A stretch of DNA of 64,000 nt from Eledone cirrhosa. Lineage: Eukaryota. Positions 32,126 to 64,000 of the stretch are shown here, one piece after another. Within the stretch, counting starts at the first letter, position 1. Every line of letters begins with the position of its first letter. The DNA lies in assembly GCA_964016885.1 (NCBI GenBank), contig OZ024764.1, forward strand, positions 5,766,001 to 5,830,000. The letters run 5' to 3'. The notes under the pieces are model-generated. The model searched no databases. It saw only the letters and a list, made by a program, of their open reading frames with translations, and was not told where the DNA came from. The position numbers were made by a program, and so were the translations under genes.

Positions 32126-32219
32126 TACATACAAACCTACAGTCAGTAGGCACCTCTTAACCCAATATACACCCCACCACACCCTACCCCATTCTCCCAT
32201 TTCCGTCCACTGTGTCAAT

Positions 32220-32820: not shown

Positions 32821-32967
32821 TGTGGTTGGTGTTAGGAAGGGCATCCATCTGTAAAAAACCTGCCAGAGACACTTCCATACGAGTGACACACGGTCTCCCG
32901 ACCAATCCCGCATCAAATGGAACAAAACCATCTAACCCATTCTAACATGGAAGATATATATATGTGA

Positions 32968-35355: not shown

Positions 35356-35477
35356 GATGCAGATGGGATGACAATGAAGAATCAATAAGAGACGGCAATC
35401 GTCTGTGGAAGCGCTGCAATCCTCATGTATATGTGTGTGTGTATGATGATGATGATGATGTGGAAAGAAGTACTTAC

Positions 35478-35762
35478 ATTGGGAAAGTTGTGAACGATAA
35501 TGTTGAGGGCATGTTTCTTCATGTCTGAAGCTTGGATCTTGTCTGCAGCCTCCAGGATCTGGACAACATTCTTAAACGACACATTCATTTCTAGGTTGTG
35601 CTTGCAGAACGCCTGCAACCTGTTGTTAGTGAAACCATAGAAATAGGGCGCTGAAAAGAGGTAGAGGGAATCTTCGGGAGGCATCGTGACATCTCCGTAG
35701 TAGATATATCGCATCAGACTGCGAAAAGCCTGCAACGACGGCACCATCTCTCCGATGGCTAT
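35478..35762 (-). CDS. LZTR1: LZTR1 exon (BTB2/BACK2: [13 protein letters not shown]...IIVHNFPN)
   Basis: TTCCAG|ATA acceptor, AAT|GTAAGT donor, 285 nt. Closely matches human [29 protein letters not shown]. Confidence 0.97.
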
Positions 35763-35819
35763 CTGGAATACAAAGAAAAAAAAACAAACACAGAAAACAT
35801 AAGGAAAGAATCCAATTGT

Positions 35820-36511
35820 CAGATCATCAGACCAAGGAAACAATGTTTCTATTGGTCTTTCCATTACTGATACTATCTGTCAGTCACAACTCCTGGCAGA
35901 AGAAAGGAGCTGATCATCAGATCAGACCAAGGAAACAATGTTTCCATTGGTCTTTCCATTACTGATACTATCTGTCAGTCACAACTCCTGACAGAAGAAA
36001 GGAGCTGATCATCAGATCAGACCAAGGAAACAATGTTTCCATTGGTCTTTCCATTACTGATACTATCTGTCAGTCACAACTCCTGGCAGAAGAAAGGAGC
36101 TGATCATCAGATCAGACCAAGGAAACAATGTTTCCATTGGTCTTTCCAATACTGATACTATCTGTCAGTCACAACTCCTGACAGAAGAAAGGAGTTGATC
36201 ATCAGATCAGACCAAGGAAACAATGTTTCCATTGGTCTTTCCATTACTGATACTATCTGTCAGTCACAACTCCTGGCAGAAGAAAGGAGCTGATCATCAG
36301 ATCAGACCAAGGAAACAATGTTTCCTTTGGTCTTTCCATTACTGATACTATCTGTCAGTCACAACTCCTGGCAGAAGAAAGGAGCTGATCATCAGATCAG
36401 ACCAAGGAAACAATGTTTCCATTGGTCTTTCCATTACTGATACTATCTGTCAGTCACAACTCCTGGCAGAAGAAAGGAGCTGAACATCAGATCAGACCAA
36501 GGAAACAATGT
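35820..36511. repeat. 95-bp tandem array (about 7 copies) from the SINE family 2 3' segment
   Basis: The unit is a reverse-complement homolog of 33080-33170. Confidence 0.9.
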
Positions 36512-36999
36512 CCTCCTGCCAACGGGTCCTGTCAGAAGCAACCATCTCCAATTGATCTGGTTGGATCCCCAAGCGGGACCAGCTGAGTTCATGAAGGTTA
36601 TCCAACCATCTTGCTCGGAGGTCTACCCATGAGTCTCCTGCTGGGTAGTAACGCTCATAAAATTCTTTCCTAATAAATTCTAATCACATGTCCGTAATAT
36701 CAGAGCTATGGTCTCTCAATTCGGAGAAGTAGCAGCTCTATCTGGAGTGACACTCTGATCTTCGAGATATGCACTCTATCGAATAATGTTACTTCAAAGG
36801 CCCTTTGGAGGAACCCCATTTTTGCTGCTACCTTAAATACCTAAATATGGCCCCAAACTGACGTTAGGAAGGGCATCTAGCTGTAGAAACCCAGCCAGAA
36901 ACAGTCCTATATGAGCAAGACACGGTCACCTGACCCAACTTACCTCATATGGGAGAACCCGTCTAACCCATGCTAGCGTGGAAAGTGGCCGTTAAACAA

Positions 37000-37033
<34 letters not shown>

Positions 37034-37053
37034 CTCAAAAAAGGCCTGCTTAC

Positions 37054-37232
37054 CTTGACTGTGTTGTCTTCAGGCATGAAAGACCTAAACATGGCCTCAA
37101 AATAGCTACTCCTGGCTGCCAAGATGGACTTGTGTGCAGGGATAGAGATTCCATCCAGGATGAGGATTATATCACAGAATTCCACCCCAACAACTTTTAG
37201 GAAGTTCTCCATGTCTTTCTCCAGAGTATTGG
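37054..37232 (-). CDS. LZTR1: LZTR1 exon (BTB2: [44 protein letters not shown])
   Basis: TGTAG acceptor, AAG|GTAAGC donor, 179 nt, phase 1 to 0. Confidence 0.97.
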
Positions 37233-37354
37233 CTACAACAACAACAACAGCATTAAGCACAATCACAGCCATAGTTAGAATTATAAACATCGTTAGATAA
37301 CTGAGATACAGGCTGGACAGAGAGATAGTAATGTAACTAACTTTCTCTTTATAA

Positions 37355-37760
37355 AGTTGGTGTTTGGAACATAACTTAACAAAGGTTCTTACATAAAATT
37401 ATGGTGAAAGGTTTTTAGATAAATATAAACACTTTAACCCTTTCATTACCATATTTCTAATGAAAGACACTGTTGGTGTTTGGAACATAACTTAACAAAG
37501 GTTCTTACATAAATACTTTAACCCTTTCATTACCATATTTCTAATGAAAGACACTGTTGGTGTTTGGAACATAACTTAACAAAGGTTCTTACATAAAATT
37601 ATGATGGAAGGTTTTTAGATAAATATAAACACTTTAACCCTTTCATTACAATATTTCTAATGAAAGACACTGTTGGTGTTTGGAACATAACTTAACAAAG
37701 GTTCTTACATAAATACTTTAACCCTTTCATTACCATATTTCTAATGAAAGACACTGTTGG
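37355..37760. repeat. Tandemly repeated piggyBac-MITE-like fragments
   Basis: TTAACCCTTTCATTACCATATTTC..TTGGTGTTTGGAACATAACTTAACAAAGG repeated 4 times. Family also present at 57.5-59.1 kb. Confidence 0.7.
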
Positions 37761-37885
37761 GGTTCTGCCCTTCCAACCCTTTATTTGACAAGATTTCTAC
37801 AGCTAGATACCCTTCATATCACCAACCACTTTACAGCATGTACACAGTGCATTTATTGTGAAGATAAACACCCTAAAATACTCAC

Positions 37886-38048
37886 AATTGTTGGGGTCAG
37901 TCTGGGGGTCAGGCAAAGTCCTGAACTGGGGCTGTTGTTTCCGTCTAATGATCTCAACCATCAAGGGCTGGTCCAAGATTTCAAACTCTTTACTCATTAT
38001 AATCTGGCTGTAGTTGCTCTCCTTCACAATGAACTTCAAACAGTATTC
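37886..38048 (-). CDS. LZTR1: LZTR1 exon ([33 protein letters not shown]..)
   Basis: CTACAG acceptor, T|GTGAGT donor, 163 nt. Confidence 0.96.
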
Positions 38049-38099
38049 CTGTAGAGAGAGAGAGAGAGATTAAGTGGGGGAGGGGGCAATGGTTTATAT

Positions 38100-39870
38100 G
38101 GGAGGAGAGGGTGAGAGGGTGTGGAGGAGAGAGATGTGAGGCGAGAGATGTGAGGTGAAAGGTGAGAGATGTATGAGGTGAGAGGTGAGAGATGTGAGAG
38201 GTGAGTTGTGAGGTGAGAGATGTGAGAGGTGAGTTGTGAGAGGCGAGAGATGTGGGGTGAGATGTGAGGTGAGAGATGTGAGGTGAAAGGTGAGAGATGT
38301 ATGAGGTGAGAGGTGAGAGATGTGAGAGGTGAGTTGTGAGGTGAGAGATGTGAGGTGAAAGGTGAGAGATGTACGAGATGAGAGGTGAGAGATGTGAGAG
38401 GTGAGTTGTGAGAGGCGAGAGATGTGGGGTGAGATGTGAGGTGAGAGATGTGAGGTGAAAGGTGAGAGATGTGAGAGGTGAGTTGTGAGAGGCGAGAGAT
38501 GTGGGGTGAGATGTGAGGTGAGAGATGTGAGGTGAAAGGTGAGAGATGTATGAGGTGAGAGGTGAGAGATGTGAGAGGTGAGTTGTGAGAGGCGAGAGAT
38601 GTGGGGTGAGATGTGAGGTGAGAGATGTGAGGTGAAAGGTGAGAGATGTATGAGGTGAGAGGTGAGAGATGTGAGAGGCGAGAGATGTGGGGTGAGATGT
38701 GAGGTGAGAGATGTGAGGTGAAAGGTGAGAGATGTATGAGGTGAGAGGTGAGAGATGTGAGAGGTGAGTTGTGAGAGGCGAGAGATGTGGGGTGAGATGT
38801 GAGATGAGAGATGTGAGGTGAAAGGTGAGAGATGTATGAGATGAGATGTGAGAGGTGAGATGTGAGAGGTGAGTTGTGAGGTGAGATGTGAGGCGAGAGG
38901 TGAGAGATGTGAGGTGAGAGATGTGAGGTGAGAGATGTGAGGTGAGATGTGAGGCAAGAGATGTGAGGTGAAAGGTGAGAGATGTATGAGATAAGAGGTG
39001 AGAGGTGAGATGTGACGTGAAAGGTGAGAGATGTGAGGTGAGAGGTGAGAGATGTGAGGTGAGATGTGAGGCGAGAGGTGAGAGATGTGAGGTGAGATGT
39101 GAGGTGAAAGGTGAGAGATGTATGAGGTGAGAGGTGAGAGATGTGAGGTGAAAGGTGAGAGATGTATGAGGTGAGAGGTGAGAGGTGAGATGTGAGGCGA
39201 GAGGTGAGATGTGAGGCGAGAAGTGAGAGATGTGAGGTGAGATGTGAGGTGAAAGGTGAGAGATGTATGAGATGAGAGGTGAGATGTGAGAGGTGAGAGA
39301 TGTGGGGTGAGATGTGAGGCGAGAGATGTGAGGTGAAAGGTGAGAGATGTATGAGATGAGATGTGAGAGATGTGAGGTGAGGTGAGATGTGAGGCGAGAG
39401 ATGTGAGGTGAAAGGTGAGAGATGTGAGATGAGAGATGTGATAGGTGAGATGCGAGAGGTGAAAGATGAGATGAAAGGTGTTGAAAAGAGAAAGAGATAA
39501 GAGGTGAAAGATGTGAAATGAAAGGTAATAGATGAGAGACAAGAAGTGAGAGATGAAAGGTGTGAGGTGAAAGGTGAAAGATGTGAGGTGAAAGGTGAAA
39601 GATGTGAAATGAAAGGTGAAAGATGTGAAATGAAAGGTAATAGATGAGAGAGGAGAAGTGAGAGATGAAAGGTGTGAGGTGAAAGGTGAAAGATGTGAAA
39701 TGAAAGGTGAAAGATGTGAAATGAAAGGTGAAAGATGTGAAATGAAAGGTAATAGATGAGAGACGAGAAGTGAGAGATGAAAGGTGTGAGGTGAAAGGTG
39801 AAAGATGTGAAATGAAAGGTGAGAGATGAGAGATGACGACAGGTGAAAGGTGTCAGGTGACAGGTGAGAA
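38100..39870. repeat. GA-rich low-complexity repeat filling an LZTR1 intron
   Basis: GTGAGA/GATGTGAG/GTGAAAG units. Confidence 0.92.
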
Positions 39871-39883
39871 GAGATTATCCTAC

Positions 39884-40000
39884 CTTAATGAAGTCCAGTT
39901 TCAAAGCTGCAGAGTTCTGTAGAGCTACCAGAACATTCTTGTGACCAATACAGGCCTCAAGGTAGTGGATACAGAGTTGCTCCAGTCTGGTCATGTTAAA
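39884..40000 (-). CDS. LZTR1: LZTR1 exon (FNMTRLEQLCIHYLEACIGHKNVLVALQNSAALKLDFIK)
   Basis: CTCTAG acceptor, AAG|GTAGGA donor, 117 nt. Matches human FQLCRLEQLCRQYIEASV. Confidence 0.96.
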
Positions 40001-40026
40001 CTAGAGGTAGAGAATGAGAGACAGTA

Positions 40027-40057
<31 letters not shown>

Positions 40058-40074
40058 TTATATACATAGATATC

Positions 40075-42650
40075 ATCATCATCATTTTACGTCCACTTTT
40101 CCCTGCTTGCAAGGGTGGGACGGGCCCTATTCAGCACAGCATCTCTCCACTTGTCACGGTCCTTCGTCATCTCCTCCGTGAGCTTCAGTGATCTGAGGTC
40201 TGCTCTCACCACCTCCGCCCATGTTTTACGTGGCCTCCCTCTACTGGTATTTCTTGGCACTTCTTTACCCATCGGTCATCCTCCATACACTTCACATGTC
40301 CATACCACTGCAATCTTCTCTCCCACACACCACAACTTATCCCTCTTATACACAGTTTCTCTCTCAACACATCACATGTCCATACCACTGCAATCTTCTC
40401 TCCCACACACTACAACTTATCCCTCTTATACACAGTTTCTCTCTCAACACATCACGTGTCCATACCATCTCAGTCTTCTCTCCCACACACCACAACTTAT
40501 CCCTCTTATACACAGTTTCTCTCTCAACACATCACATGTCCATACCATCTCAGTCTTCTCTCCCGCACACTACAACTTATCCCTCTTATATACAGTTTCT
40601 CTCTCAACACATCACATGTCCATACCATCTCAGTCTTCTCTCCCACACACTACAACTTATCCCTCTTATATACTGTTTCTCTCTCAACACATCACATGTC
40701 CATACCATTTCAGTCTTCTCTCCCGCACACCACAACTTATCCCTCTTATACACAGTTTCTCTCTCAACACATCACATGTCCATACCATCTCAGTCTTCTC
40801 TCCCACACACCACAACTTATCCCTCTTATACAGTTTCTCTCTCAACACATCACATGTCCATACCATCTCAGTCTTCTCTCCCACGCACCACAACTTATCC
40901 CTCTTATACAGTTTCTCTCTCAACACATCACATGTCCATACCACTGCAATCTTCTCTCCCACACACTACAACTTATCCTTCTTATACACAGTTTCTCTCT
41001 CAACACATCACATGTCCATACCATCTCAGTCTTCTCTCCTACACACTACAACTTATCCCTCTTATACACAGTTTCTCTCTCAACACATCACATGTCCATA
41101 CCATCTCAGTCTTCTCTCCCACACACTACAACTTATCCTTCTTATACACAGTTTCTCTCTCAACACATCACATGTCCATACCATCTCAGTCTTCTCTCCT
41201 ACACACTACAACTTATCCCTCTTATACACAGTTTCTCTCTCAACACATCACATGTACATACCATCTCCGTCTTCTCTCCCACACACTACAACTTATCCCT
41301 CTTATACACAGTTTCTCTCTCAACACATCACATGTCCATACCATCTCAGTCTTCTCTCCCACACACCACAACTTATCCCTCTTATACACAGTTTCTCTCT
41401 CAACACATCACATGTCCATACCATCTCAGTCTTCTCTCCCACACACTACAACTTATCCTTCTTATACACAGTTTCTCTCTCAACACATCACATGTCCATA
41501 CCATCTCAGTCTTCTCTCCTATACACTACAACTTATCCCTCTTATACACAGTTTCTCTCTCAACACATCACATGTCCATACCATCTCAGTCTTCTCTCCC
41601 ACACACTACAACTTATCCCTCTTATACACAGTTTCTCTCTCAACACATCACATGTCCATACCATCTCAGTCTTCTCTCCCACACACCACAACTTATCCTT
41701 CTTATACCCAGTTTCTCTCTCAACACATCACATGTCCATACCATCTCAGTCTTCTCTCCCACACACCACAACTTATCCCTCTTATACACAGTTTCTCTCT
41801 CAACACATCACATGTCCATACCATCTCAGTCTTCTCTCCCACACACCACAACTTATCCTTCTTATACCCAGTTTCTCTCTCAACACATCACATGTCCATA
41901 CCATCTCAGTCTTCTCTCCCACACACCACAACTTATCCTTCTTATACCCAGTTTCTCTCTCAACACATCACATGTCCATACCATCTGTCTTCTCTCCCAC
42001 ACACCACAACTTATCCCTCTTATACACAGTTTCTCTCTCAACACATCACATGTCCATACCATCTCAGTCTTCTCTCCCACACACTACAACTTATTCCTCT
42101 TATACACAGTTTCTCTCTCAACACATCACATGTCCATACCATCTCAGTCTTCTCTCCCACACACCACAACTTATCCTTCTTATACCCAGTTTCTCTCTCA
42201 ACACATCACATGCCCATACCATCTCAGTCTTCTCTCCCACACACCACAACTTATCCTTCTTATACCCAGTTTCTCTCTCAACACATCACATGTCCATACC
42301 ATCTCAGTCTTCTCTCCCACACACCACAACTTATCCCTCTTATACACAGTTTCTCTCTCAACACATCACATGTCCATACCATCTCAGTCTTCTCTCCCAC
42401 ACACCACAACTTATCCCTCTTATACACAGTTTCTCTCTCAACACATCACATGTCCATACCATCTCAGGCTTCTCTCCCACACACTACAACTTATCCCTCT
42501 TATACACAGTTTCTCTCTCAACTTGTCTATGATTGGTCATTCATACATATTGACATTGCACATCCAACAGCGCATGCTTGCTTCATTTCTCTCCAGCCTT
42601 CGCATATCCTGTGCAGTTGCTGCCCACGTCTCACTACCATGCAGCATTGC
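40075..42650 (-). mobile_element. RTE LINE 3' end containing an 80-bp tandem array (about 28 copies, 40300-42520)
   Basis: Flanks encode LHGSETW..ERNEASM and RGRPRKTW with an (ATG)n tail. The unit encodes LREKLCIRGISCGVWERRLRWYGHVMC. Confidence 0.92.
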
Positions 42651-42748
42651 GCATCTTTCACACACAGACACACATATAAACACACGCAGAGACATATAGA
42701 TATGTGTAGAGACACATATCTATAGACGCAGCGAGACAATAGACTCAC

Positions 42749-42813
42749 CTGGACAGATAGCCGATATACATCCATCATCAGTAGTATGACCTCATTGCTG
42801 GTTGGTTCTTGAC
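42749..42813 (-). CDS. LZTR1: LZTR1 exon (GQEPTSNEVILLMMDVYRLSVQ)
   Basis: TTTCAG acceptor, CAG|GTGAGT donor, 65 nt. Matches human DVLLIMDVYKLALS. Confidence 0.95.
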
Positions 42814-43419
42814 CTGAAACACACGAGAAGGGTCAGCCTACCATAACAAAGTACATCTATATCATCATCCAGACTTGTACTGTCAGTCACTTCACGCCAT
42901 GAAACCAAGCAGCAACCTGACAAGCCTTCTGCCTTGACACAGACTTTAGACCTAACACATCAAATGCCCCTATCAGTCACGAATGACCATGGTTCTGCAA
43001 CTAGAAACTTACCCTCTGAGGAAGAAGTCTAGGCAAGGTTTGTTTTGTAAAGGCCAGCAGTCACCCCTGGTATACCAGTCCCCCCTCTCCATACCACCGA
43101 TGTTGTCCAAGGGAAAGGCAATAGCCAATACAGCTTGGCACCAGTGATATAACATATATATACACTATATATACAATATATATACTCTATGTACAGTATA
43201 TATACACTATATATGCATTATATATACACTATATATGATGTTGTCCAAGGCTGATACAGCTTTGCACCAGTGATGTCACAACTCATATATACACCATATA
43301 TACACCATATATACATTATATATATATTATATATACACTATATATACATTATATATATATTATATATACACTATATATACATTATATATATACATTATGT
43401 ATACACTATATATATATAT

Positions 43420-44490
43420 ATGGCGATAAAAATAGACGGTAGCCACGGAGTAGGTAGACCCAGAAAAACCTGGGACGACTTGATAAATTCCGACCTCACA
43501 CACTTACACCTCTCCAAGTCAATGTCACTGGACCGAGATCTTTGGCGCTACGCAGTAATACAGAAGACCCGCCTTGCCTAAGTACAGAGTGAAACCTACT
43601 ACAGTCAGTAGGCACCTCTAACAAAATACACCACCGTCCCACTACCCACACCCCATCCATACCACCCCCTTAAATGTAAAGTTATGTTGGTACCACAACA
43701 TCCAGTCCTAAATAAATGAGGTCGTGTAGGTGTCACGACAGAAAAACACACAGTCCACGCTGTAATGTGGCCGTGTAGGTAACACGGTAAAAACCTCCCA
43801 GTCCACACTGTAAACGTGGTTGGTGTTAGGAAGGGCATCCAGCTGTAGAAAACCTGCCAGACAGTCCACGCTGTAATGTGGCTGTGTAGGTAACACGGTA
43901 AAAACCTCCCAATCCACACTGTAAACGTGGTTGGTGTTGGGAAGGGCACCCAGCCGTAGAAAACCTGCCAGACGTGTAGGTGTCACGACAAAAAAACACA
44001 GTCCACGCTGTAATGTGGCCGTGTAGGTAACACGGTAAAAACCTCCCAATCCACACTGTAAACGTGGTTGGTGTTGGGAAGGGCACCCAGCCGTAGAAAA
44101 CCCGCCAGACGTGTAGGTGTCACGACAAAAAAACACCCAGTCCACGCTGTAATGTGGCCGTGTAGGTAACACGGTAAAAACCTCCCAGTCCACACTGTAA
44201 ACGTGGTTGGTGTTGGGAAGGGCACCCAGCCGTAGAAAACCCGCCAGACGTGTAGGTGTCACAACAAAAAACACACAGTCCACGCTGTAATGTGGCCGTG
44301 TAGGTAACACGGTAAAAACCTCCCAGTCCACACTGTAAACGTGGTTGGTGTTGGGAAGGGCATCCAGCCGTAGAAAACCCGCCAGACAGTCCTGAGCAAG
44401 ACAACCAATCTTGCCTCAAGTGGGACAATTCCCGTCCAGACCCATGCTAGCGTGGAAAATGGACGTTAAACGATGATGATGATGATGATA
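43420..44490 (+). mobile_element. RTE 3' fragment plus SINE tail with about 137-bp tandem repeats
   Basis: GRPRKTWDD fragment, repeated CCACACTGTAAACGTGGTTGGTGTTGGGAAGGGC blocks, (ATG)n tail. Confidence 0.8.
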
Positions 44491-44594
44491 TATATATTTG
44501 TGTGTGCGTATGTATATGTATGCGTTGGCGCATACATATACACTGGCCTAAATTTTAACAATTATTTATATTTACTATTATAATAACCTCTAAG

Positions 44595-45222
44595 GGCGGT
44601 GGTTTGGCAGTATCGGTAGAGGGCCGGACACCATGCTTTCCAGCATAGAGTTACGCCCCTTTGTGGTCTGAGTTCAAATCCCGCCGAGGTTAACTTTGCC
44701 TTTCATCCTTACGGGGTCGATATTAAATAAAGTTCCAGTCACGCACTGGCGTCGATTTAATAGACTTTCCCCTTCCCCCCCCCCAAATTGTTGTCCCTGT
44801 GCCTATATAAGAAACCATTATTAATCCGGCGCGCCGCCCTGCCCGAACAGTTGAGCAAAGTGCCACTGAAAGGCCGCGCTCCTCTGCTTCGGCTCACGTA
44901 TCATGCGTCCGTTTTGGTCCTTCAAAGATCGAATCATGGACTTGTTGCCACTTTTCGCCTCCGTAACTCGGGCCCAGCTAACAGCTTTGGCTCCCTCGTT
45001 TCCCAGAGCACGTATTTTGCTCCTGACAATGCAGCCTTCACTGGCAGTGTCAGTAGAGGGTCGGACGCCATGCTTTCCAGCACAGTTACGTCTCTTTACG
45101 GTCTGAGTTCAAATCCCGCCGAGGTTGACTTTGCCTTTCATCCTTACGGGGTCGATAAAATAAAGTACCAGTAATGCACTGGGATAATTGCTGGCCTTGT
45201 GCCTAAAGTAGAAACAATTATT
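44595..45222 (+). mobile_element. Two SINE family 3 copies (44595-44820 and 45041-45222)
   Basis: TGGCAGTATCGGTAGAG A box, GAGTTCAAATCC B box. Confidence 0.85.
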
Positions 45223-45676
45223 TACTTTTACTATTATTAATAACCTCTGTCATTTATTTTATTCTTAAACTCCGGAACTGGAAATCATTTGGTTATTCTA
45301 AATAGAATATTAGTCTAACGACTCCTTTTATACAATAAACATGGTTTTGTCATTGCAAGAAATTCTTCTTCTCGCTCCACATAATGACGTAATTATCCTC
45401 GAATTTTTCCGTTCATTGCCAGGGAACGTCTTCACAAACCAAAGTATCATCTTCCTGTTTTCCTTCAGTTGCAACATTTTTAAAAACATTTTTCCTGCGT
45501 TCACAGATTGATTTTTTTAGTTTCAGAAGATCCCGTTAAGGGTGAAAGCAGCGATTCTTTGCTTAAACTTTAATCTGTCCTTATAATAAATATTTGCTCT
45601 GCAGGTTTATATATATTTTTATATATATATAATCCTTATTGAGCCCTCTACGGACTTTAGTCTTCACAGTTATTAT

Positions 45677-45728
<52 letters not shown>

Positions 45729-45736
45729 ATACAAAG

Positions 45737-46042
45737 TGTTTCCTTGAGCAAGACACTTTATTTCACATTGCTCCAGTTTACTCAGCTGTAGAAATGGGAT
45801 GATAGGGACTGGGGTCCCTATCATTCCACTGTAAAGTGGTTGTGGAGGTGCCACGGCAAAAAAGCACCCAGCCCACACTGTAAAGTGGACATGTAGGCGC
45901 CACAGAAAAAAAGCACCCAGCACTCACTGTAAATGAGGTTAGTGTTAGGAAGGGCATCCAGCTGTAGAAATCAAGGCAGAATCAGTTCCCGTCCCACCCT
46001 TGCAAGCAGGGAAAAGCGGACGTAAAATGATGATGATGATGA
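45737..46042 (+). mobile_element. 5'-truncated SINE family 1
   Basis: Matches 11345-11600. Confidence 0.85.
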
Positions 46043-46669
46043 TATATCTATATAATATATAGAAATAAACACACAAAGAAGTGTGTTTAGAATTACATGG
46101 GTTGAAAAGCACTTTGGTGCATTGTATATAATCTATGAACAAATGGAAAATAGATAATAACCGGGGAAAAAATGAATTAAAATGTACTAACCACTTCAAT
46201 AACTAATAAACTCCTGGACAAACTACTGATAGAGTTTGTTTCACCATAAATTAGTGGCTATGTCACATAATCCTAGGGTTTCTCAACAGGAGTAAGGATT
46301 ATATGAACAGCACACCTAGAGATAATTTAGGTAACTAAATATTGCACATGGTGAATATAGTAAGAGAACCAATGAAACCTTGTGTGACAGACAGCACATA
46401 GTGGCATGAGTGGATCATAAAACAGCTAAAAATGGCAGCCTAAAGCGACTCAACTTCAAAGGTTCAACAAACAGCGAGAGAAACTGTTAAGAGCCAAATT
46501 CAAATGAAAAACGGAGTACGCCCCACATTTGCAGTCCCAGTTATTCATGGAATTATCTTTAAAACCTAACTAATAATTATTCCTGAAAACCACCAAATAT
46601 TCATGGAAGCATAAATATCTTCTGCGATTTTTTTTTAATGGTTTTTTTCCTGGCATTATATATTTTTTG

Positions 46670-46855
46670 GGGATTGGCAGTATCGGTAGAGGTTCGGACG
46701 CCATGCTTTGACGCATAGAGTTACGGCCCTTGCCATTCTGAGTTCAAATCCCGCCGAGGTTAACTTTGCCTTTCATCCTTACGGGGTCGATAAAATAAAG
46801 TACCAGTAATGTACTGGGTAATTTCTGGCTTTGTGCCAATAGTAGAAACAATTAT
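46670..46855 (+). mobile_element. SINE family 3
   Basis: Near-identical reverse complement of 17607-17795. Confidence 0.88.
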
Positions 46856-47110
46856 ATTTTTTTTTTTCACACTTTTTAACACTAAATCATCAACAACAAT
46901 ATACCACATTTGCTGGCCTATTGGACAGCCCTGCTCATAAGATTCTCCCTCTTTTTTTAAAAATTATATTTTAAGTTATACTTTGACGCCTATAGGCATT
47001 ATATGGACCACATCCAATATTCAGTTTTTCACTCTTCACAGTGCTCCAGGAACATAACCTCCACAAATACAGGGGGGACAACTGTATATGTAAAATCAAT
47101 TAACTAATTT

Positions 47111-47785
47111 AATTGTTTCTACTTTAGGCACAAGGCCAGCAATTACCCAGTGCATTACTGGTACTTTATTTTATCGACCCCGTAAGGATGAAAGGCAAAG
47201 TCAACCTCGGCGGGATTTGAACTCAGATCGTAAAGGGACGTAACTATGCTGGAAAGCATGGCGTCCGACCCTCTACCGATACTGCCAATCCACCGCCCTA
47301 GCATGGTGTCCGACCCTCTACCGATACTGCCAATCCACCACCCTAGCATGGTGTCCGACCCTCTACCGATATTGTCAATCCACCACCCTAGCATGGTGTC
47401 CGACCCTCTACCGATACTGCCAATCCACCACCCTAGCATGGTGTCCGACCCTCTACCGATACTGACAATCCACCACCCTAGCATGGTGTCCGACCCTCTA
47501 CCGATACTGACAATCCACCACCCTAGCATGGTGTCCGACCCTCTACCGATACTGACAATCTACCACCCTAGCATGGTGTCCGACCCTCTACCGATACTGC
47601 CAATCCACCACCCTAGCATGGTGTCCGACCCTCTACCGATACTGCCAATCCACCACCCTAGCATGGTGTCCGACCCTCTACCGATACTGCCAATCCACCA
47701 CCCTAGCATGGTGTCCGACCCTCTATCGATACTGCCAATCCACCACCCTAGCATGGTGTCCGACCCTCTACCGATACTGACAATC
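47111..47785 (-). mobile_element. SINE family 3 whose 5' head is amplified as a 45-bp tandem repeat (about 12 copies)
   Basis: Unit GCATGGTGTCCGACCCTCTACCGATACTGCCAATCCACCACCCTA. Confidence 0.9.
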
Positions 47786-48026
47786 CCCCAATCCTGGTTA
47801 TTCTTATTCATTTTATTTATCTCAATGAAACAAAACAAAAAAAAACGAATAAACAAGAGGATGCAATCACATGAAGTGTATTAGTTTCACGCTTGGAGAA
47901 AGAAGAGTGAGTTATATAGTCAACAACATCAGGCATTTGCCCATATAATGGAGTATTGGGAAAGCCAGTACATCTCGGGGTGTATACAGAAGGGGTATAT
48001 ATAGTGAAGAGGGTGTATAAACTGAC

Positions 48027-48156
48027 CTTTCTGTGTTGGGTGTATACGATCGGTGTATATATAGGACAGGACCATGTCAAAAGCCTTGGGGTTGGCATCA
48101 GGGACGGAAACCTTCAGTTTTCCAGCCATTTCTTTACTGCATAGAGGTAACTGTTG
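48027..48156 (-). CDS. LZTR1: LZTR1 exon (QQLPLCSKEMAGKLKVSVPDANPKAFDMVLSYIYTDRIHPTQK)
   Basis: TTCCAG acceptor (alternative in-frame CAG 6 nt downstream), AAG|GTCAGT donor, 130 nt. BTB F..vL.yiYTD motif. Confidence 0.93.
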
Positions 48157-48225
48157 CTGGAAGTGAGAGAGGGACTAATGTTAGGCATTAACTAGCGTTA
48201 GACACTGGCTTATTGACATTTTAAG

Positions 48226-51200
48226 GTGGTGGTGGTGATAGTAGTGGTGGTGGTGGTAGTGGTGGTGGTAGTAGTGGTGGTGGTAGTGGTGGTGGTGATA
48301 GTAGTGGTGGTGGTGGTAGTGGTGGTGGTGGTGGTGGTAGTGGTGGTGGTAGTGGTGGTGGTGGTAGTAGTGGTGGTGGTAGTGGTGGTGGTGGTAGTAG
48401 TGGTGGTGGTAGTAGTGGTGGTGGTAGTGGTGGTGGTGGTAGTAGTGGTGGTGGTAGTAGTGATGGTGGTAGTAGTGATGGTGGTAGTGGTGGTGGTGGT
48501 AGTGGTGGTGGTGGTAGTGGTGGTGGTAGTGGTGGTGGTGGTAGTAGTGGTGGTGGTAGTAGTGATGGTGGTAGTAGTGGTGGTGATAGTAGTGGTGGTG
48601 ATAGTAGTGGTGGTGATAGTAGTGGTGGTGGTAGTGGTGGTGGTGGTGGTAGTAGTGATGGTGGTAGTGGTGATGGTGGTAGTAGTGGTGGTGATAGTAG
48701 TGGTGGTGGTAGTAGTGGTGGTGGTAATAGTGGTGGTGGTAGTGGTGGTACTAGTGGTAGTGGTGGTGGTGGTAGTAGTGATGGTGGTAGTGGTGGTGGT
48801 GGTAGTGGTGGTGGTGGTAGTAGTGATGGTGGTAGTGGTGGTGGTGGTAGTAGTGATGGTGGTAGTAGTGGTGGTGGTAGTAGTGGTGGTGATAGTAGTG
48901 GTGGTGGTAGTAGTGGTGGTGGTAGTAGTGATGGTGGTAGTAGTGGTGGTGGTAGTGGTGGTGGTGGTAGTGGTGATGGTGGTAGTGGTGGTGGTGGTAG
49001 TGGTGATGGTGGTAGTAGTGATGGTGGTAGTAGTGATGGTGATAGTGGTGGTGGTGGTGGTAGTGGTGGTGGTAGTGGTGGTGGTGGTAGTAGTGATGGT
49101 GATAGTAGTGGTGGTGATAGTAGTGGTGGTGGTAGTAGTGGTGGTGGTAGTGGTGGTGGTGGTAGTGGTGGTGGTGGTAGTAGTGATGGTGGTAGTAGTG
49201 GTGGTGGTAGTAGTGGTGGTGGTGGTAGTGGTGGTGGTAGTGGTGGTGGTGGTAGTAGTGATGGTGATAGTAGTGGTGGTGATAGTAGTGGTGGTGATAG
49301 TAGTGGTGGTGGTAGTAGTGATGGTGGTAGTAGTGATGGTGGTAGTGGTGGTGGTGGTAGTAGTGGTGGTGGTAGTAGTGATGGTGGTAGTAGTGGTGGT
49401 GATAGTAGTGGTGGTGGTAATAGTGATGGTGGTAGTAGTGATGGTGGTAGTGGTGGTGGTGGTAGTAGTGGTGGTGGTAGTAGTGATGGTGGTAGTAGTG
49501 GTGGTGATAGTAGTGGTGGTGGTGGTAGTGGTGGTGGTAATAGTGATGGTGGTAGTAGTGATGGTGGTAGTGGTGGTGGTGGTAGTAGTGGTAGTGGTAG
49601 TAGTGATGGTGGTAGTAGTGGTGGTGATAGTAGTGGTGGTGGTGGTAGTGGTGGTGGTAATAGTGATGGTGGTAGTAGTGATGGTGGTAGTGGTGGTGGT
49701 GGTAGTAGTGATGGTGGTAGTAGTGGTGGTGATAGTAGTGGTGGTGGTGGTAGTGGTGGTGATAGTGGTGATGGTGGTAGTGGTGATGGTGGTAGTGGTG
49801 GTGGTGGTAGTAGTGATGGTGGTAGTGGTGGTGGTGGTAGTAGTGATGGTGGTAGTGGTGGTGGTGGTAGTAGTGATGGTGGTAGTAGTGATGGTGGTAG
49901 TGGTGGTGATAGTGGTGATGGTGGTAGTGGTGATGGTGGTAGTGGTGGTGGTGATAGTAGTAATGGTGATAGTAGTGGTGGTGGTAGTAGTGATGGTGGT
50001 AGTGGTGGTGGTGGTAGTGGTGATGGTGGTAGTGGTGGTGGTGGTAGTGGTGGTGATAGTGGTGATGGTGGTAGTGGTGATGGTGGTAGTGGTGGTGGTG
50101 ATAGTAGTAATGGTGATAGTAGTGGTGGTGGTAGTAGTGATGGTGGTAGTGGTGGTGGTGGTAGTGGTGATGGTGGTAGTGGTGGTGGTGGTAGTAGTGG
50201 TGATAGTAGTGATGGTGGTAGTGGTGGTGGTGGTAGTGGTGGTGGTGGTAGTAGTAATGGTGATAGTAGTGGTGGTGGTAGTGGTGGTGATAGTGGTGAT
50301 GGTGGTAGTGGTGATGGTGGTAGTGGTGGTGGTGATAGTAGTAGTGGTGGTGGTGTTGATGATAGTAGTGATGGTGATAGTGGTAGTGATGGTGGTAGTG
50401 TTGGTGGTAATAGTAGTGATGGTGGTGGTGACGATGGTGATAGTAGTGGTGGTGGTGGTGGTGTTGATGATAATAAATATAGTGGTAGTGGTAGTGATGG
50501 TGGTAGTGTTGGTGGTAGTGGTAGCGATGGTGGTAGTGTTGGTACTAGTGTTGGTATTAGTGGTAGTGTTGGTGGTAGTGTTGGTACTAGTGGTAGTGTT
50601 GGTACTAGTGGTAGTGTTGGTGGTAGTGTTGGTACTAGTGGTAGTGTTGGTGGTAGTGTTGGTACTAGTGGTAGTGTTGGTATTAGTGGTAGTGTTGGTG
50701 GTAGTGTTGGTACTAGTGGTAGTGTTGGTGGTAGTGTTGGTACTAGTGGTAGTGTTGGTGGTAGTGTTGGTACTAGTGGTAGTGTTGGTGGTAGTGTTGG
50801 TACTAGTGGTAGTGTTGGTATTAGTGGTAGTGTTGGTGGTAGTGTTGGTACTAGTGGTAGTGTTGGTGGTAGTGTTGGTACTAGTGGTAGTGTTGGTACT
50901 AGTGGTAGTGTTGGTGGTAGTGTTGGTACTAGTGGTAGTGTTGGTGGTAGTGTTGGTACTAGTGGTAGTGTTGGTGGTAGTGTTGGTACTAGTGGTAGTG
51001 TTGGTATTAGTGGTAGTGTTGGTGGTAGTGTTGGTACTAGTGGTAGTGTTGGTGGTAGTGTTGGTACTAGTGGTAGTGTTGGTGGTAGTGTTGGTACTAG
51101 TGGTAGTGTTGGTGGTAGTGTTGGTACTAGTGGTAGTGTTGGTGGTAGTGTTGGTACTAGTGGTAGTGTTGGTATTAGTGGTAGTGTTGGTGGTAGTGTT

Positions 51201-54200
51201 GGTATTAGTGGTAGTGTTGGTGGTAGTGTTGGTACTAGTGGTAGTGTTGGTGGTAGTGTTGGTACTAGTGGTAGTGTTGGTGGTAGTGTTGGTACTAGTG
51301 GTAGTGTTGGTGGTAGTGTTGGTACTAGTGGTAGTGTTGGTATTAGTGGTAGTGTTGGTGGTAGTGTTGGTACTAGTGGTAGTGTTGGTATTAGTGGTAG
51401 TGTTGGTGGTAGTGTTGGTACTAGTGGTAGTGTTGGTATTAGTGGTAGTGTTGGTGGTAGTGTTGGTACTAGTGGTAGTGTTGGTGGTAGTGTTGGTGGT
51501 AGTGTTGGTACTAGTGGTAGTGTTGGTGGTAGTGTTGGTACTAGTGGTAGTGTTGGTGGTAGTGTTGGTACTAGTGGTAGTGTTGGTGGTAGTGGTAGTG
51601 TTGGTGGTAGTGTTGGTACTAGTGGTAGTGTTGGTATTAGTGGTAGTGTTGGTGGTAGTGGTAGTGTTGGTACTAGTGGTAGTGTTGGTGGTAGTGTTGG
51701 TACTAGTGGTAGTGTTGGTGGTAGTGTTGGTACTAGTGGTAGTGTTGGTACTAGTGGTAGTGTTGGTGGTAGTGTTGGTACTAGTGGTAGTGTTGGTGGT
51801 AGTGTTGGTACTAGTGGTAGTGTTGGTGGTAGTGTTGGTACTAGTGGTAGTGTTGGTGGTAGTGTTGGTACTAGTGGTAGTGTTGGTGGTAGTGTTGGTG
51901 GTAGTGGTAGTGTTGGTGGTAGTGTTGGTACTAGTGGTAGTGTTGGTGGTAGTGTTGGTACTAGTGGTAGTGTTGGTGGTAGTGTTGGTACTAGTGGTAG
52001 TGTTGGTGGTAGTGTTGGTGGTAGTGGTAGTGTTGGTGGTAGTGTTGGTACTAGTGGTAGTGTTGGTATTAGTGGTAGTGTTGGTGGTAGTGGTAGTGTT
52101 GGTACTAGTGGTAGTGTTGGTGGTAGTGTTGGTACTAGTGGTAGTGTTGGTGGTAGTGTTGGTACTAGTGGTAGTGTTGGTACTAGTGGTAGTGTTGGTG
52201 GTAGTGTTGGTACTAGTGGTAGTGTTGGTGGTAGTGTTGGTACTAGTGGTAGTGTTGGTGGTAGTGTTGGTACTAGTGGTAGTGTTGGTGGTAGTGTTGG
52301 TACTAGTGGTAGTGTTGGTGGTAGTGTTGGTACTAGTGGTAGTGTTGGTGGTAGTGTTGGTACTAGTGGTAGTGTTGGTGGTAGTGTTGGTATTAGTGGT
52401 AGTGTTGGTGGTAGTGGTAGTGTTGGTATTAGTGGTAGTGTTGGTACTAGTGGTAGTGTTGGTACTAGTGGTAGTGTTGGTACTAGTGGTAGTGTTGGTG
52501 GTAGTGTTGGTACTAGTGGTAGTGTTGGTGGTAGTGTTGGTACTAGTGGTAGTGTTGGTGGTAGTGTTGGTACTAGTGGTAGTGTTGGTGGTAGTGTTGG
52601 TACTAGTGGTAGTGTTGGTGGTAGTGTTGGTGGTAGTGGTAGTGTTGGTGGTAGTGTTGGTACTAGTGGTAGTGTTGGTGGTAGTGTTGGTACTAGTGGT
52701 AGTGTTGGTGGTAGTGTTGGTACTAGTGGTAGTGTTGGTGGTAGTGTTGGTGGTAGTGGTAGTGTTGGTGGTAGTGTTGGTACTAGTGGTAGTGTTGGTA
52801 TTAGTGGTAGTGTTGGTGGTAGTGGTAGTGTTGGTACTAGTGGTAGTGTTGGTGGTAGTGTTGGTACTAGTGGTAGTGTTGGTGGTAGTGTTGGTACTAG
52901 TGGTAGTGTTGGTACTAGTGGTAGTGTTGGTGGTAGTGTTGGTACTAGTGGTAGTGTTGGTGGTAGTGTTGGTACTAGTGGTAGTGTTGGTGGTAGTGTT
53001 GGTACTAGTGGTAGTGTTGGTGGTAGTGTTGGTACTAGTGGTAGTGTTGGTGGTAGTGTTGGTACTAGTGGTAGTGTTGGTGGTAGTGTTGGTACTAGTG
53101 GTAGTGTTGGTGGTAGTGTTGGTATTAGTGGTAGTGTTGGTGGTAGTGGTAGTGTTGGTATTAGTGGTAGTGTTGGTACTAGTGGTAGTGTTGGTACTAG
53201 TGGTAGTGTTGGTACTAGTGGTAGTGTTGGTGGTAGTGTTGGTACTAGAGGTAGTGTTGGTGGTAGTGTTGGTACTAGTGGTAGTGTTGGTGGTAGTGTT
53301 GGTACTAGTGGTAGTGTTTGTGGTAGTGTTGGTACTAGTGGTAGTGTTGGTGGTAGTGTTGGTATTAGTGGTAGTGTTGGTGGTAGTGGTAGTGTTGGTA
53401 TTAGTGGTAGTGTTGGTACTAGTGGTAGTGTTGGTACTAGTGGTAGTGTTGGTGGTAGTGTTGGTACTAGTGGTAGTGTTGGTACTAGTGGTAGTGTTGG
53501 TGGTAGAGTTGGTACTAGTGGTAGTGTTGGTACTAGTGGTAGTGTTGGTGGTAGTGTTGGTACTAGTGGTAGTGTTGGTGGTAGTGTTGGTACTAGTGGT
53601 AGTGTTGGTGGTAGTGTTGGTGGTAGTGTTGGTACTAGTGGTAGTGTTGGTGGTAGTGTTGGTACTAGTGGTAGTGTTGGTGGTAGTGTTGGTACTAGTG
53701 GTAGTGTTGGTGGTAGTGTTGGTACTAGTGGTAGTGTTGGTGGTAGTGTTGGTACTAGTGGTAGTGTTGGTGGTAGTGTTGGTACTAGTGGTAGTGTTGG
53801 TACTAGTGGTAGTGTTGGTACTAGTGGTAGTGTTGGTGGTAGTGTTGGTACTAGTGGTAGTGTTGGTATTAGTGGTAGTGTTGGTGGTAGTGGTAGTGTT
53901 GGTACTAGTGGTAGTGTTGGTACTAGTGGTAGTGTTGGTACTAGTGGTAGTGTTGGTGGTAGTGTTGGTACTAGTGGTAGTGTTGGTGGTAGTGTTGGTA
54001 CTAGTGGTAGTGTTGGTGGTAGTGTTGGTACTAGTGGTAGTGTTGGTGGTAGTGTTGGTACTAGTGGTAGTGTTGGTGGTAGTGTTGGTACTAGTGGTAG
54101 TGTTGGTGGTAGTGTTGGTATTAGTGGTAGTGTTGGTGGTAGTGGTAGTGTTGGTATTAGTGGTAGTGTTGGTGGTAGTGTTGGTACTAGTGGTAGTGTT

Positions 54201-55552
54201 GGTACTAGTGGTAGTGTTGGTGGTAGTGGTAGTGTTGGTGGTAGTGGTAGTGTTGGTACTAGTGGTAGTGTTGGTGCTAGTGGTAGTGTTGGTACTAGTG
54301 GTAGTGTTGGTGGTAGTGTTGGTACTAGTGGTAGTGTTGGTACTAGTGGTAGTGTTGGTGGTAGTGGTAGTGTTGGTGGTAGTGGTAGTGTTGGTGGTAG
54401 TGTTGGTACTAGTGGTAGTGTTGGTGGTAGTGTTGGTACTAGTGGTAGTGTTGGTACTAGTGGTAGTGTTGGTGGTAGTGGTAGTGTTGGTGGTAGTGTT
54501 GGTACTAGTGGTAGTGTTGGTACTAGTGGTAGTGTTGGTGGTAGTGGTAGTGTTGGTACTAGTGGTAGTGTTGGTACTAGTGGTAGTGTTGGTACTAGTG
54601 GTAGTGTTGGTGGTAGTGGTAGTGTTGGTACTAGTGGTAGTGTTGGTACTAGTGGTAGTGTTGGTGGTAGTAGTAGTGTTGGTACTAGTGGTAGTGTTGG
54701 TGGTAGTGTTGGTATTAGTGGTAGTGTTGGTACTAGTGGTAGTGTTGGTGGTAGTGTTGGTACTAGTGGTAGTGGTGGTACTAGTGGTAGTGTTGGTACT
54801 AGTGGTAGTGGTAGTGTTGGTGGTAGTGTTGGTACTAGTGGTAGTGTTGGTACTAGTGGTAGTGTTGGTACTAGTGGTAGTGTTGGTACTAGTGGTAGTG
54901 TTGGTGGTAGTGTTGGTACTAGTGGTAGTGTTGGTACTAGTGGTAGTGTTGGTGGTAGTGGTAGTGTTGGTACTAGTGGTAGTGTTGGTACTAGTGGTAG
55001 TGTTGGTACTAGTGTTGGTACTAGTGGTAGTGTTGGTGGTAGTGTTGGTACTAGTGGTAGTGTTGGTACTAGTGGTAGTGTTGGTGGTAGTGTTGGTGGT
55101 AGTGGTAGTGTTGGTACTAGTGGTAGTGTTGGTACTAGTGTTGGTACTAGTGGTAGTGTTGGTACTAGTGGTAGTGTTGGTGGTAGTGTTGGTACTAGTG
55201 GTAGTGTTGGTACTAGTGGTAGTGTTGGTACTAGTGGTAGTGTTGGTACTAGTGGTAGTGTTGGTGGTAGTGTTGGTACTAGTGGTAGTGTTGGTGGTAG
55301 TGGTAGTGTTGGTACTAGTGGTAGTGTTGGTACTAGTGGTAGTGTTGGTGGTAGTGTTGGTACTAGTGGTAGTGTTGGTGGTAGTGGTAGTGTTGGTACT
55401 AGTGGTAGTGTTGGTACTAGTGGTAGTGTTGGTACTAGTGGTAGTGTTGGTGGTAGTGGTAGTGTTGGTACTAGTGGTAGTGTTGGTACTAGTGGTAGTG
55501 TTGGTGGTAGTGTTGGTACTAGTGGTAGTGTTGGTGGTAGTGGTAGTGTTGG
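48226..55552. repeat. 7.3-kb trinucleotide-based (GGT/AGT/GAT) microsatellite with a higher-order 12/18-nt zone
   Basis: 48226-50500 is simple. 50500-55552 is built from AGTGTTGGTGGT and AGTGTTGGTACTAGTGGT blocks. Confidence 0.97.
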
Positions 55553-55559
55553 TACCTAC

Positions 55560-55613
55560 CTGTGTGTCATCAGAGTGGTACTTTGCAGCATCAACTACCG
55601 TCATGTCCTGCAT
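55560..55613 (-). CDS. LZTR1: LZTR1 small exon (MQDMTVVDAAKYHSDDTQ), variable insertion in BTB1
   Basis: TTTCCTCAG acceptor, CAG|GTAGGT donor, 54 nt, phase 0/0 consistent with neighbours. No sequence homology, as expected for this loop. Confidence 0.7.
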
Positions 55614-62457: not shown

Positions 62458-62735
62458 TATACAACCAAAACAATTATTAACACACACACAGAAATATTTA
62501 CACATACACAAACACTGACCCACACAGAGAACACTGTCACACACACACTTACTGTCACACATACACACAACACAGTCTACACACACACACACACACACAC
62601 ACGATACTCACCCTGTCCACACTCGCACACACACACTGACATTCACACACACACAAACACTGACATACATAGACACATACACACTGACATACACACACAC
62701 ACGTACACACTGACACAAAGAAGTAGCGTCCTTAC

Positions 62736-62828
62736 CGCTCCAACAATGAAGGAAACATCACAGAATTGACGAGACTCCAGCAGACGTTCATAGTCTTCGT
62801 GTAGGGTACATTTGGGATAACTGGAGAA
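62736..62828 (-). CDS. LZTR1: LZTR1 exon ([31 protein letters not shown]), start of BTB1
   Basis: TTTCAG acceptor, GCG|GTAAGG donor, 93 nt. Matches human [30 protein letters not shown]. Confidence 0.96.
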
Positions 62829-63994
62829 CTGAAATAGGATATAGACCTGTTGTAGGGTACATTTGGGATAACTGGAGAACTGAAATAGGATATAGACCTG
62901 CTGTAGGATACATTTGGGATAACTGGAGAACTGAAATAGGATATAGACCTGTTGTAGGATACATTTGGGATAACTGGAGAACTGAAATAGGATATAGACC
63001 TGTTGTAGGGTACATTTGGGATAACTGGAGAACTGAAATAGGATATAGACCTGTTGTAGGGTACATTTGGGATAACTGGAGAACTGAAATAGGATATAGA
63101 CCTGTTGTAGGGTACATTTGGGATAACTGGAGAACTGAAATAGGATATAGACCTGTTGTAGGGTACATTTGGGATAACTGGAGAACTGAAATAGGATATA
63201 GACCTGTTGTAGGGTACATTTGGGATAACTGGAGAACTGAAATAGGATATAGACCTGTTGTAGGTTACATTTGGGATAACTGGAGAACTGAAATAGGATA
63301 TAGACCTGTTGTAGGGTACATTTGGGAGAACTGAAATAGGATATAGACCTGTTGTAGGATACATTTGGGATAACTGGAGAACTGAAATAGGATATAGACC
63401 TGTTCTAGGGTACATTTGGGATAACTGGAGAACTGAAATAGGATATAGACCTGTTGTAGGATACATTTGGGATAACTGGAGAACTGAAATAGGATATAGA
63501 CCTGTTGTAGGGTACATTTGGGATAACTGGAGAACTGAAATAGGATATAGACCTGTTGTAGGATACATTTGGGATAACTGGAGAACTGAAATAGGATATA
63601 GACCTGTTGTAGGATACATTTGGGATAACTGGAGAACTGAAATAGGATATAGACCTGTTGTAGGGTACATTTGGGATAACTGGAGAACTGAAATAGGATA
63701 TAGACCTGTTGTAGGATACATTTGGGATAACTGGAGAACTGAAATAGGATATAGACCTGTTGTAGGGTACATTTGGGATAACAGGAGAACTGAAATAGGA
63801 TATAGACCTGTTGTAGGATACATTTGGGATAACTGGAGAACTGAAATAGGATATAGACCTGTTGTAGGGTACATTTGGGATAACTGGAGAACTGAAATGG
63901 GATATAGACCTGTTGTAGGGTACATTTGGGATAACTGGAGAACTGAAATGGGATATAGACCTGTTGTAGGGTACATTTGGGATAACTGGAGAAC
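62801..63994 (-). repeat. 51-bp tandem array (about 23 copies) of the LZTR1 splice acceptor plus exon start
   Basis: Minus-strand unit ACAGGTCTATATCCTATTTCAG|TTCTCCAGTTATCCCAAATGTACCCTACA. Confidence 0.95.
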
Positions 63995-64000
63995 AAATAG

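What the first reader, a model, noticed from the sequence alone, without database searches (positions are those of the whole stretch)
62736..63994. LZTR1 splice acceptor and exon start amplified about 23 times as an in-frame 51-bp unit
Seen: each unit contains the 3' splice site (CCTATTTCAG) and the first codons FSSYPKCTL, and is 17 stop-free codons ([17 protein letters not shown]). The ten acceptors from 62829 to 63288 are all in frame, so each more distal choice adds 17 aa between Kelch and BTB1. One unit near 63326 has an 8-nt deletion, putting all more distal acceptors out of frame (likely NMD). Each unit also has a CAG|GT, the configuration proposed for intron gain by tandem duplication. 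How the spliceosome picks among identical acceptors in a conserved RAS-regulator gene is an open question.
Basis: partly seen in the sequence, partly recalled or inferred. Interest (0 to 1): 0.75.

Follow-up and report, generated by a model that had tools for sequence, protein, structure and literature searches.

The report
Splice-acceptor "mirage" repeat in octopod LZTR1
A 51-base piece spanning the end of an intron and the start of an exon in an octopus-type LZTR1 gene is repeated about 98 times, but the one spliced transcript seen uses only the last splice site, so this is likely a tolerated repeat of a kind already known from lancelets and humans.

Summary
The array is real and larger than reported. 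It runs past the window end to about 5 kb: 98 units, with 90 of 99 unit starts preceded by AG. It fills most of intron 10 of an intact 20-exon, 778-codon octopod LZTR1 (761/778 identical to the Octopus vulgaris/sinensis protein). A 2,690-nt contig of run X1 (RNA inferred) joins exon 10 directly to the last acceptor and on to exon 12, and no other X1 contig lay on the unit. The Kelch-BTB linker is never lengthened in 35 measured homologs. The CAG|GT is outside the exon-derived part and scores below all 19 real donors, so this is not precise intron gain. The gene is 72% tandem repeat; 2 of 38 exon edges are captured against about 3.4 expected. This is a known repeat type: lancelet "mirages", human CBS 844ins68, F7. 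The scan has noted similar, sometimes larger, arrays elsewhere in this genome and in others. Rare unit-containing isoforms are not excluded.

The parts
62736..62828 (-). LZTR1 exon 11 (93 nt, phase 0/0): end of the Kelch domain, linker and start of BTB1; its first 29 nt are the exon-derived part of the repeat
   Evidence: tblastn with P0004; AG and GT ends and phases; covered without mismatch by spliced contig X1 record 1
62829..62850 (-). Authentic 3' splice site: the last 22 nt of intron 10, identical to the intron-derived part of the consensus unit
   Evidence: X1 contig leaves the genomic sequence here for exon 10 (loose end compared by eye with exon 10); leave-one-out acceptor score 8.2 bits, real acceptors range -4.1 to 17.7
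62800..64000 (-). Window part of the 51-bp boundary-spanning minisatellite; it continues to G000:C25:5833792 (window-equivalent 67792), 98 units in all
   Evidence: TRF; unit list
62880..63288 (-). Nine spare acceptors that are in frame and stop-free with exon 11 (would add 17 residues each); no use seen
   Evidence: frame and stop count; no X1 contig on the unit
63288..63330 (-). 43-nt unit with the 8-nt deletion; the same variant occurs 3 times in the full array
62730..62735 (-). Donor of exon 11 (GTAAGG), the likely exon-definition partner of the last acceptor
   Evidence: sequence; donor score 5.1 bits
59129..59218 (-). LZTR1 exon 12, joined to exon 11 in the X1 contig
28796..55613 (-). 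LZTR1 exons 13-20 (rest of BTB1, BACK, BTB2, BACK, followed by TGA); exons 1-10 lie beyond the window at C25:5835379-5883950

Best explanation
This is a 98-copy intronic minisatellite whose 51-base unit spans the LZTR1 intron 10/exon 11 boundary; the one spliced contig seen joins exon 10 to the last acceptor only, so the other copies are likely unused passengers. Origin (inferred): a local tandem duplication caught the boundary, as chance predicts in a gene that is 72% tandem repeat, and it grew by block duplication. It grew upstream into the intron and left the exon whole. Choice of site (inferred, not tested): the copies cannot be told apart locally, so the last one most likely wins by exon definition, because only it is followed directly by the unique exon body and a real donor 93 nt away. 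The in-unit CAG|GT is probably too weak to define mini-exons. Any leak to the 80 other AG-bearing sites by exon extension would meet a stop codon and would probably be removed by nonsense-mediated decay.
For: Shown: (1) Spliced 2,690-nt contig, depth 22.1, covers 62735-62835 with 0 differences; its two 30-nt loose ends match exon 10 and exon 12; it is the only 1 of X1's contigs laid on a stretch holding about two units. (2) Intact 778-codon frame with GT-AG at all 19 introns when no unit is included. (3) Motif-to-motif length across the junction is 44 residues in 34 of 35 measurable homologs, 43 in one, never longer; 8 of 43 long proteins had no motif match. (4) 40 of 90 AG-bearing starts share the authentic -22..+29 context exactly and 24 of 90 share -51..+29; internal units fold to an open centroid, so neither local sequence nor hairpins mark the decoys. 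(5) In-unit donor scores 2.5 bits against 4.3-11.1 for the 19 real donors. (6) 2 of 38 exon edges of the gene lie in arrays, about 3.4 expected (rough estimate). (7) Unit variants recur in blocks: a 13-unit block twice, a 7-unit block twice. (8) An older 40-bp array upstream is a diverged relative of the unit (score 69 against a maximum of 64 in 1000 shuffles) and is not a multiple of three. Literature: the same layout in lancelet BflGb6 leaves splicing normal (PMC3087553); in human CBS 844ins68 the downstream copy of a duplicated intron/exon junction is strongly favoured (PMC2630376).
Against: The RNA evidence is one contig from one run whose kind is not on record, and such contigs drop rare variants. 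Exon size alone does not exclude the next three acceptors: 144, 195 and 246 nt lie within the gene's own internal exon range of 54-285 nt. In donor-side arrays of human 6-16 and CBS intron 13 the nearest spare sites are used (PMC1557585), and ABCA7 retains one unit in some transcripts (PMC5954066). The splice-site matrices come from 19 sites each and are crude: an exonic CAG at +8 scores 11.6, above the authentic 8.2. Exon definition was not tested here.
Confidence: 0.85

Rival explanations
1. Leaky isoform ladder: the nearest spare acceptors are used at a low or tissue-specific rate, adding 17 residues per unit to the Kelch-BTB linker, while farther ones send transcripts to nonsense-mediated decay, so array length would tune LZTR1 dose.
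For: Nine spare acceptors are in frame and stop-free; three give normal exon sizes; the insertion point is at the edge of the crystallised human Kelch construct, which ends at P0004 residue 350, so a longer linker may be tolerated; nearest spare sites are used in some human donor arrays.
Against: No X1 contig carries a unit; no homolog has a longer linker, 0 of 35; the frame is broken repeatedly along the array, the older 40-bp array is out of frame, and the exon 4 array of the same gene lacks the AG in 39 of 39 spare copies, none of which suggests selection for in-frame use.
Confidence: 0.1
2. Intron gain or micro-exon use: an upstream acceptor plus the in-unit CAG|GT defines a 33-nt in-frame micro-exon, and the rest of the array becomes a new intron.
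For: Each unit has AG...CAG|GT 33 nt apart, phase 0 at both ends (sequence); Ebner et al. propose mirages as a route to new introns (PMC3087553).
Against: The donor scores below all 19 real donors; its use would add 11 residues to a length-invariant region; the X1 contig shows no such insert; precise gain needs an exonic AGGT, and this one is not in the exon-derived part.
Confidence: 0.03
3. The array, or its length, is an assembly artefact.
For: Copy number could not be calibrated against single-copy depth; no listed contig spans the array.
Against: Contigs of three DNA-like runs hold the unit at depths up to 1031, 314 and 457 (one sample, possibly the source of the assembly, so not independent); 17 unit types recur in ordered blocks, which read errors would not readily give; both flanks lead to the expected neighbouring exons.
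Confidence: 0.02

Closest known systems
Lancelet 'mirages' (globin BflGb6 and BflGb9, Adh3, troponin C, PGBD5); PMC3087553 and PMC3902484, passages read
   Same: Minisatellite-like tandem duplication of an intron 3' end plus the 5' part of the next exon (BflGb6); many copies keep AG/GT signals; regular splicing reported to be unaffected; repeat turnover within the cluster.
   Different: BflGb6 has 3-6 units of 150-160 bp at 81-100% identity; here 98 units of 51 bp differing by about 1 base on average, in an octopod, with 9 spare sites in frame and stop-free.
Human CBS c.844_845ins68; PMC7490669 and PMC2630376, passages read
   Same: Duplication of the last 52 intron bases and first 16 exon bases; the downstream site is strongly favoured and normal mRNA is made.
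   Different: Two copies, a polymorphic allele with a few divergent bases; here 90 AG-bearing starts.
Human F7 intron 7 37-bp VNTR, with 6-16, CBS intron 13, lamin B2 and PDGF; PMC1557585, passages read; ABCA7 intron 18 VNTR, PMC5954066, passages read
   Same: A minisatellite repeats an identical splice site; the site next to the unique exon dominates; F7 spare sites are functional but silent.
   Different: These repeat the donor, not the acceptor; in 6-16, CBS intron 13 and ABCA7 nearby spare sites are partly used, which was not seen here.
Intron gain by tandem genomic duplication; PMC3443670, passages read
   Same: Tandem duplication with an AG|GT in each copy.
   Different: The model duplicates an exonic AGGT and leaves the coding sequence unchanged; here the AGGT is outside the exon-derived part, the donor is weak, and no new intron is seen.

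Membership tests
Mirage (boundary-spanning minisatellite) | Head-to-tail unit spans an exon-intron boundary of the host gene | tested here: met
   29 nt exon start plus 22 nt intron end; exon confirmed by homology and a spliced contig
Mirage (boundary-spanning minisatellite) | Spare copies lie in the intron and many keep splice signals | tested here: met
   90 of 99 unit starts follow AG; 9 lost it
Mirage (boundary-spanning minisatellite) | Regular splicing of the mRNA is kept | tested here: met
   Main form only: X1 contig joins exons 10, 11 and 12 with no unit; one run, rare forms not visible
Mirage (boundary-spanning minisatellite) | Repeat turnover within the cluster | tested here: met
   Variant blocks recur (13-unit and 7-unit blocks); mean 1.07 differences among 89 units of 51 nt
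Mirage (boundary-spanning minisatellite) | Length differs between alleles or individuals | not testable with these tools
Intron gain by tandem genomic duplication | The duplicated AGGT lies in exonic sequence so that splicing leaves the protein unchanged | tested here: not met
   Exon and unit diverge after 29 nt, before the CAG|GT; use would add at least 11 residues
Intron gain by tandem genomic duplication | The duplicated sites are used as a new donor and acceptor | tested here: not met
   No such insert in the X1 contig; donor 2.5 bits against 4.3-11.1 for real donors; rare use not excluded
Alternatively spliced VNTR (6-16, CBS intron 13, ABCA7 type) | Transcripts that retain one or more units | tested here: inconclusive
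   None among X1 contigs, but contigs drop rare variants and only one run was available
LZTR1 ortholog | Kelch propeller followed by two BTB-BACK modules, high identity to named LZTR1 | tested here: met
   761 of 778 residues identical to P0004, named LZTR1 of Octopus vulgaris/sinensis; BTB hits in the window; P0004 matches human LZTR1 Kelch 9MEY at E 3.9e-177

The most novel reading that the evidence does not exclude
The nearest spare acceptors are used in some tissues, giving LZTR1 forms with a Kelch-BTB linker longer by 17, 34 or 51 residues, and array length varies between animals and shifts the balance between normal, lengthened and decay-bound transcripts: a repeat-length dial on a conserved signalling regulator.
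Probability: 0.07. Interest if true: 0.55.

Novelty: new member of a known kind. Interest (0 to 1): 0.15.

Why it matters
As it stands it is one more mirage, in a genome where the scan's unchecked notes list several others, one with about 247 copies. Its value is as a clean natural test of acceptor choice: 24 sites identical over 80 bases, of which one is seen used, which points away from local sequence and towards position relative to the downstream donor. It would matter more if spare sites were used in proportion to array length, since LZTR1 is a dosage-sensitive RAS-family regulator in humans (recalled, not from a call). For annotation, the in-frame units should not be added to the gene model.

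Tried and rejected
Single-copy depth calibration: window 9480-11250 looked nearly unique against the DNA held (tested as 9400-11250) but proved to be a high-copy dispersed repeat, so no read-based copy number was obtained. The unique part of exon 11 had no cover in X2-X4; this is not used as evidence. No RNA holder was listed as such; X1 is taken as RNA only because its contig is spliced. The 31-residue exon alone found nothing in PDB or Pfam. Masking of spare acceptors by RNA structure: rejected, internal units fold worse than all 200 shuffles. Selective loss of AG within the array: 9 of 98 units lack it, but from only two variant types out of 17, so no claim is made. Enrichment of boundary capture: none in this gene, 2 against about 3.4 expected; the estimate is rough because some of the 42 arrays are one array split at fetch borders or are related to each other. 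Genome survey: of 179 Pfam rows (72 myosin, 107 kinesin) 98 were given to the script and 97 had DNA; the rest were left out because no DNA was fetched for them or they lay in long open frames. 3 of 97 touched an array, 2 of these appear by eye to include a donor (2-3 copies), none an acceptor. HMM matches can stop short of exon ends, so this is a floor. Scripts stopped with errors (after printing the counts cited); one search had exon 3 mis-set; one search is the corrected run. Literature searches for an octopus report gave only unrelated listings; 'mirages' gave one paper; one search gave F7 and an abstract book. No supplements were read.

Full report
Observation. On the minus strand the window holds 23 acceptor motifs from 63943 to 62829, spaced 51 nt apart except for one 43-nt unit between 63331 and 63288. 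The unit is the first 29 nt of the exon at 62828-62736 followed by the last 22 nt of the intron, and it reads as 17 stop-free codons. The window cuts the array. In the own genome it spans C25:5828800-5833792, 98.6 copies at 96% matches. Of 99 unit starts (98 units plus the real exon), 90 follow AG, 6 lost it by a 2-nt deletion and 3 by a substitution; 48 of the 90 are in frame with the exon and 10 are also stop-free, exactly the ten from 62829 to 63288.

Gene. A 54-residue exon of the window found 51 proteins, headed by Octopus LZTR1. Mapping P0004 onto the window and its neighbours gave 20 exons over 89 kb. Joined, they give 778 codons with no stop, GT-AG at all 19 introns, and 761 of 778 residues identical to P0004. 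The focal exon is exon 11, phase 0 at both ends; the array fills about 5 kb of the 6,550-nt intron 10. The junction falls between P0004 residues 348 and 349, at the end of the crystallised human Kelch construct, which aligns to residue 350. Across homologs the stretch spanning the junction is 44 residues in 34 of 35 measurable proteins, 43 in one and never longer; 8 of the 43 proteins of 450 residues or more had no motif match.

Which acceptor is used. Run X1, whose kind is not on record, has a 2,690-nt contig at depth 22.1 that matches 62735-62835 without a difference. Its two loose ends match the start of exon 12 and the end of exon 10 over the 30 letters shown (compared by eye). The 7 bases beyond 62828 are shared between the end of exon 10 and the end of the intron. 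The contig is therefore a spliced mRNA with no extra unit, and its flanks (about 1,230 and 1,360 nt) can hold the 1,044 and 1,197 coding bases on either side. It was the only X1 contig laid on a stretch containing about two units. This is one run of one study, and contigs drop rare variants, so it shows the main form, not the absence of minor ones. Contigs of X2-X4 hold the unit at depths up to 1031, 314 and 457; they come from one sample that may be the assembly's source, and my attempt to calibrate copy number failed.

How it likely works. 40 of the 90 AG-bearing starts match the authentic site from -22 to +29 and 24 from -51 to +29, and internal units are unstructured. The choice therefore cannot rest on local sequence or hairpins. 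What is unique to the last site is the exon body and a real donor 93 nt downstream, which points to exon definition (inferred; the model is described in PMC1557585). The in-unit CAG|GT scores 2.5 bits on a matrix from the gene's own donors, below all 19 real ones (4.3-11.1), and the in-unit CAG scores -4.1 as an acceptor, equal to the weakest real one. These matrices are crude: an exonic CAG at +8 scores above the authentic acceptor. Size does not exclude the next three acceptors, whose exons (144, 195, 246 nt) fall within the gene's range of 54-285 nt, so low-level leakage remains possible.

How it likely arose. TRF masks 72% of the gene span, with 42 complex arrays counted; a rough chance model expects 3.4 of 38 exon edges to be caught and 2 are. 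The second is a 137-bp array before exon 4, where 39 of 39 spare copies lack the AG. Upstream of the 51-bp array lie 30- and 40-bp repeats that are diverged relatives of the same unit (score 69, above all 1000 shuffles, maximum 64), interrupted by about 170 bases that look like a dispersed repeat. So this boundary seems to have seeded arrays twice, and the older one kept no frame. Variant units recur in blocks, such as a 13-unit block 28 units apart, as expected from unequal exchange (inferred). Elsewhere the genome is less extreme: around 97 myosin and kinesin exon matches TRF covers 17% of the DNA, against 66% within 1.5 kb of LZTR1 exons; 2 of 97 appear to carry a small donor-spanning duplication and none an acceptor array (98 of 179 rows were used, see Tried and rejected).

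Comparison with what is known. Lancelet 'mirages' are minisatellite-like duplications of intron-exon boundaries; BflGb6 repeats an intron 3' end plus exon start, many units keep AG/GT, and regular splicing is reported to be unaffected (PMC3087553, passages; PMC3902484, passage). Human CBS 844ins68 duplicates 52 intron and 16 exon bases, and the downstream site is strongly favoured (PMC7490669, passages; PMC2630376, passage). On the donor side, F7 spare sites are functional but silent, while 6-16 and CBS intron 13 use the nearest ones (PMC1557585, passages) and ABCA7 retains one unit in some transcripts (PMC5954066, passages). Precise intron gain by tandem duplication needs an exonic AGGT (PMC3443670, passages), which is not met here. 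I found no paper on such arrays in octopus in two searches (listings only), but the library lacks most subscription journals. The term 'mirage' and several paper leads came from earlier notes of this scan, which list like cases in this genome and others; those notes are unchecked and are not counted as support.

Verdict. It is a new member of a known kind and most likely silent (0.85). A leaky isoform ladder is not excluded (0.10). Interest 0.15.

Noticed in passing
G000:C25:5864601-5870003 (L007 6601-10000, L008 1-2003): Second mirage in the same gene: a 137-bp array of about 40 copies repeating the start of LZTR1 exon 4; 39 of 39 spare copies lack the AG, and the authentic acceptor is the weakest-scoring of the gene's 19.
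   Followed up: partly
L004 5751-5902 and 6073-6639 (C25:5833751-5834639): Older 30- and 40-bp repeats related to the 51-bp unit, each ending in AG at the matching position, split by about 170 bases resembling a dispersed repeat; suggests two rounds of amplification from one boundary.
   Followed up: partly
window 62829-62835 and C25:5835379-5835385: Exon 10 and intron 10 end in the same 7 bases, so aligners can slide the junction; probably chance.
   Followed up: no
window 1-9373, 24395-27376, 33519-35352, 40287-42522, 48226-55553, 60431-62456: Several multi-kilobase minisatellites, each with its own unit; TRF masks 61% of the window and 72% of the LZTR1 span, against 17% in loci sampled elsewhere.
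   Followed up: partly
window 9480-11250: High-copy dispersed repeat (summed contig depth up to several hundred thousand in X2-X4), also present in X1 contigs; family not identified.
   Followed up: no
window 19284-22697: Fragments whose translations look like endonuclease and reverse-transcriptase parts of a LINE-type element (judged from recall); not searched.
   Followed up: no
L034 1707-1763 (C3:145259684-145259740) and L048 1403-1505: Small duplications of 2-3 copies that appear to include a splice donor of a myosin exon (donors judged by eye).
   Followed up: partly
P0001, P0002, P0003: Public Octopus bimaculoides LZTR1 models are 669-728 residues and lack parts of BTB1 and the last BACK region present in P0004 and in this genome, probably annotation gaps.
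   Followed up: no
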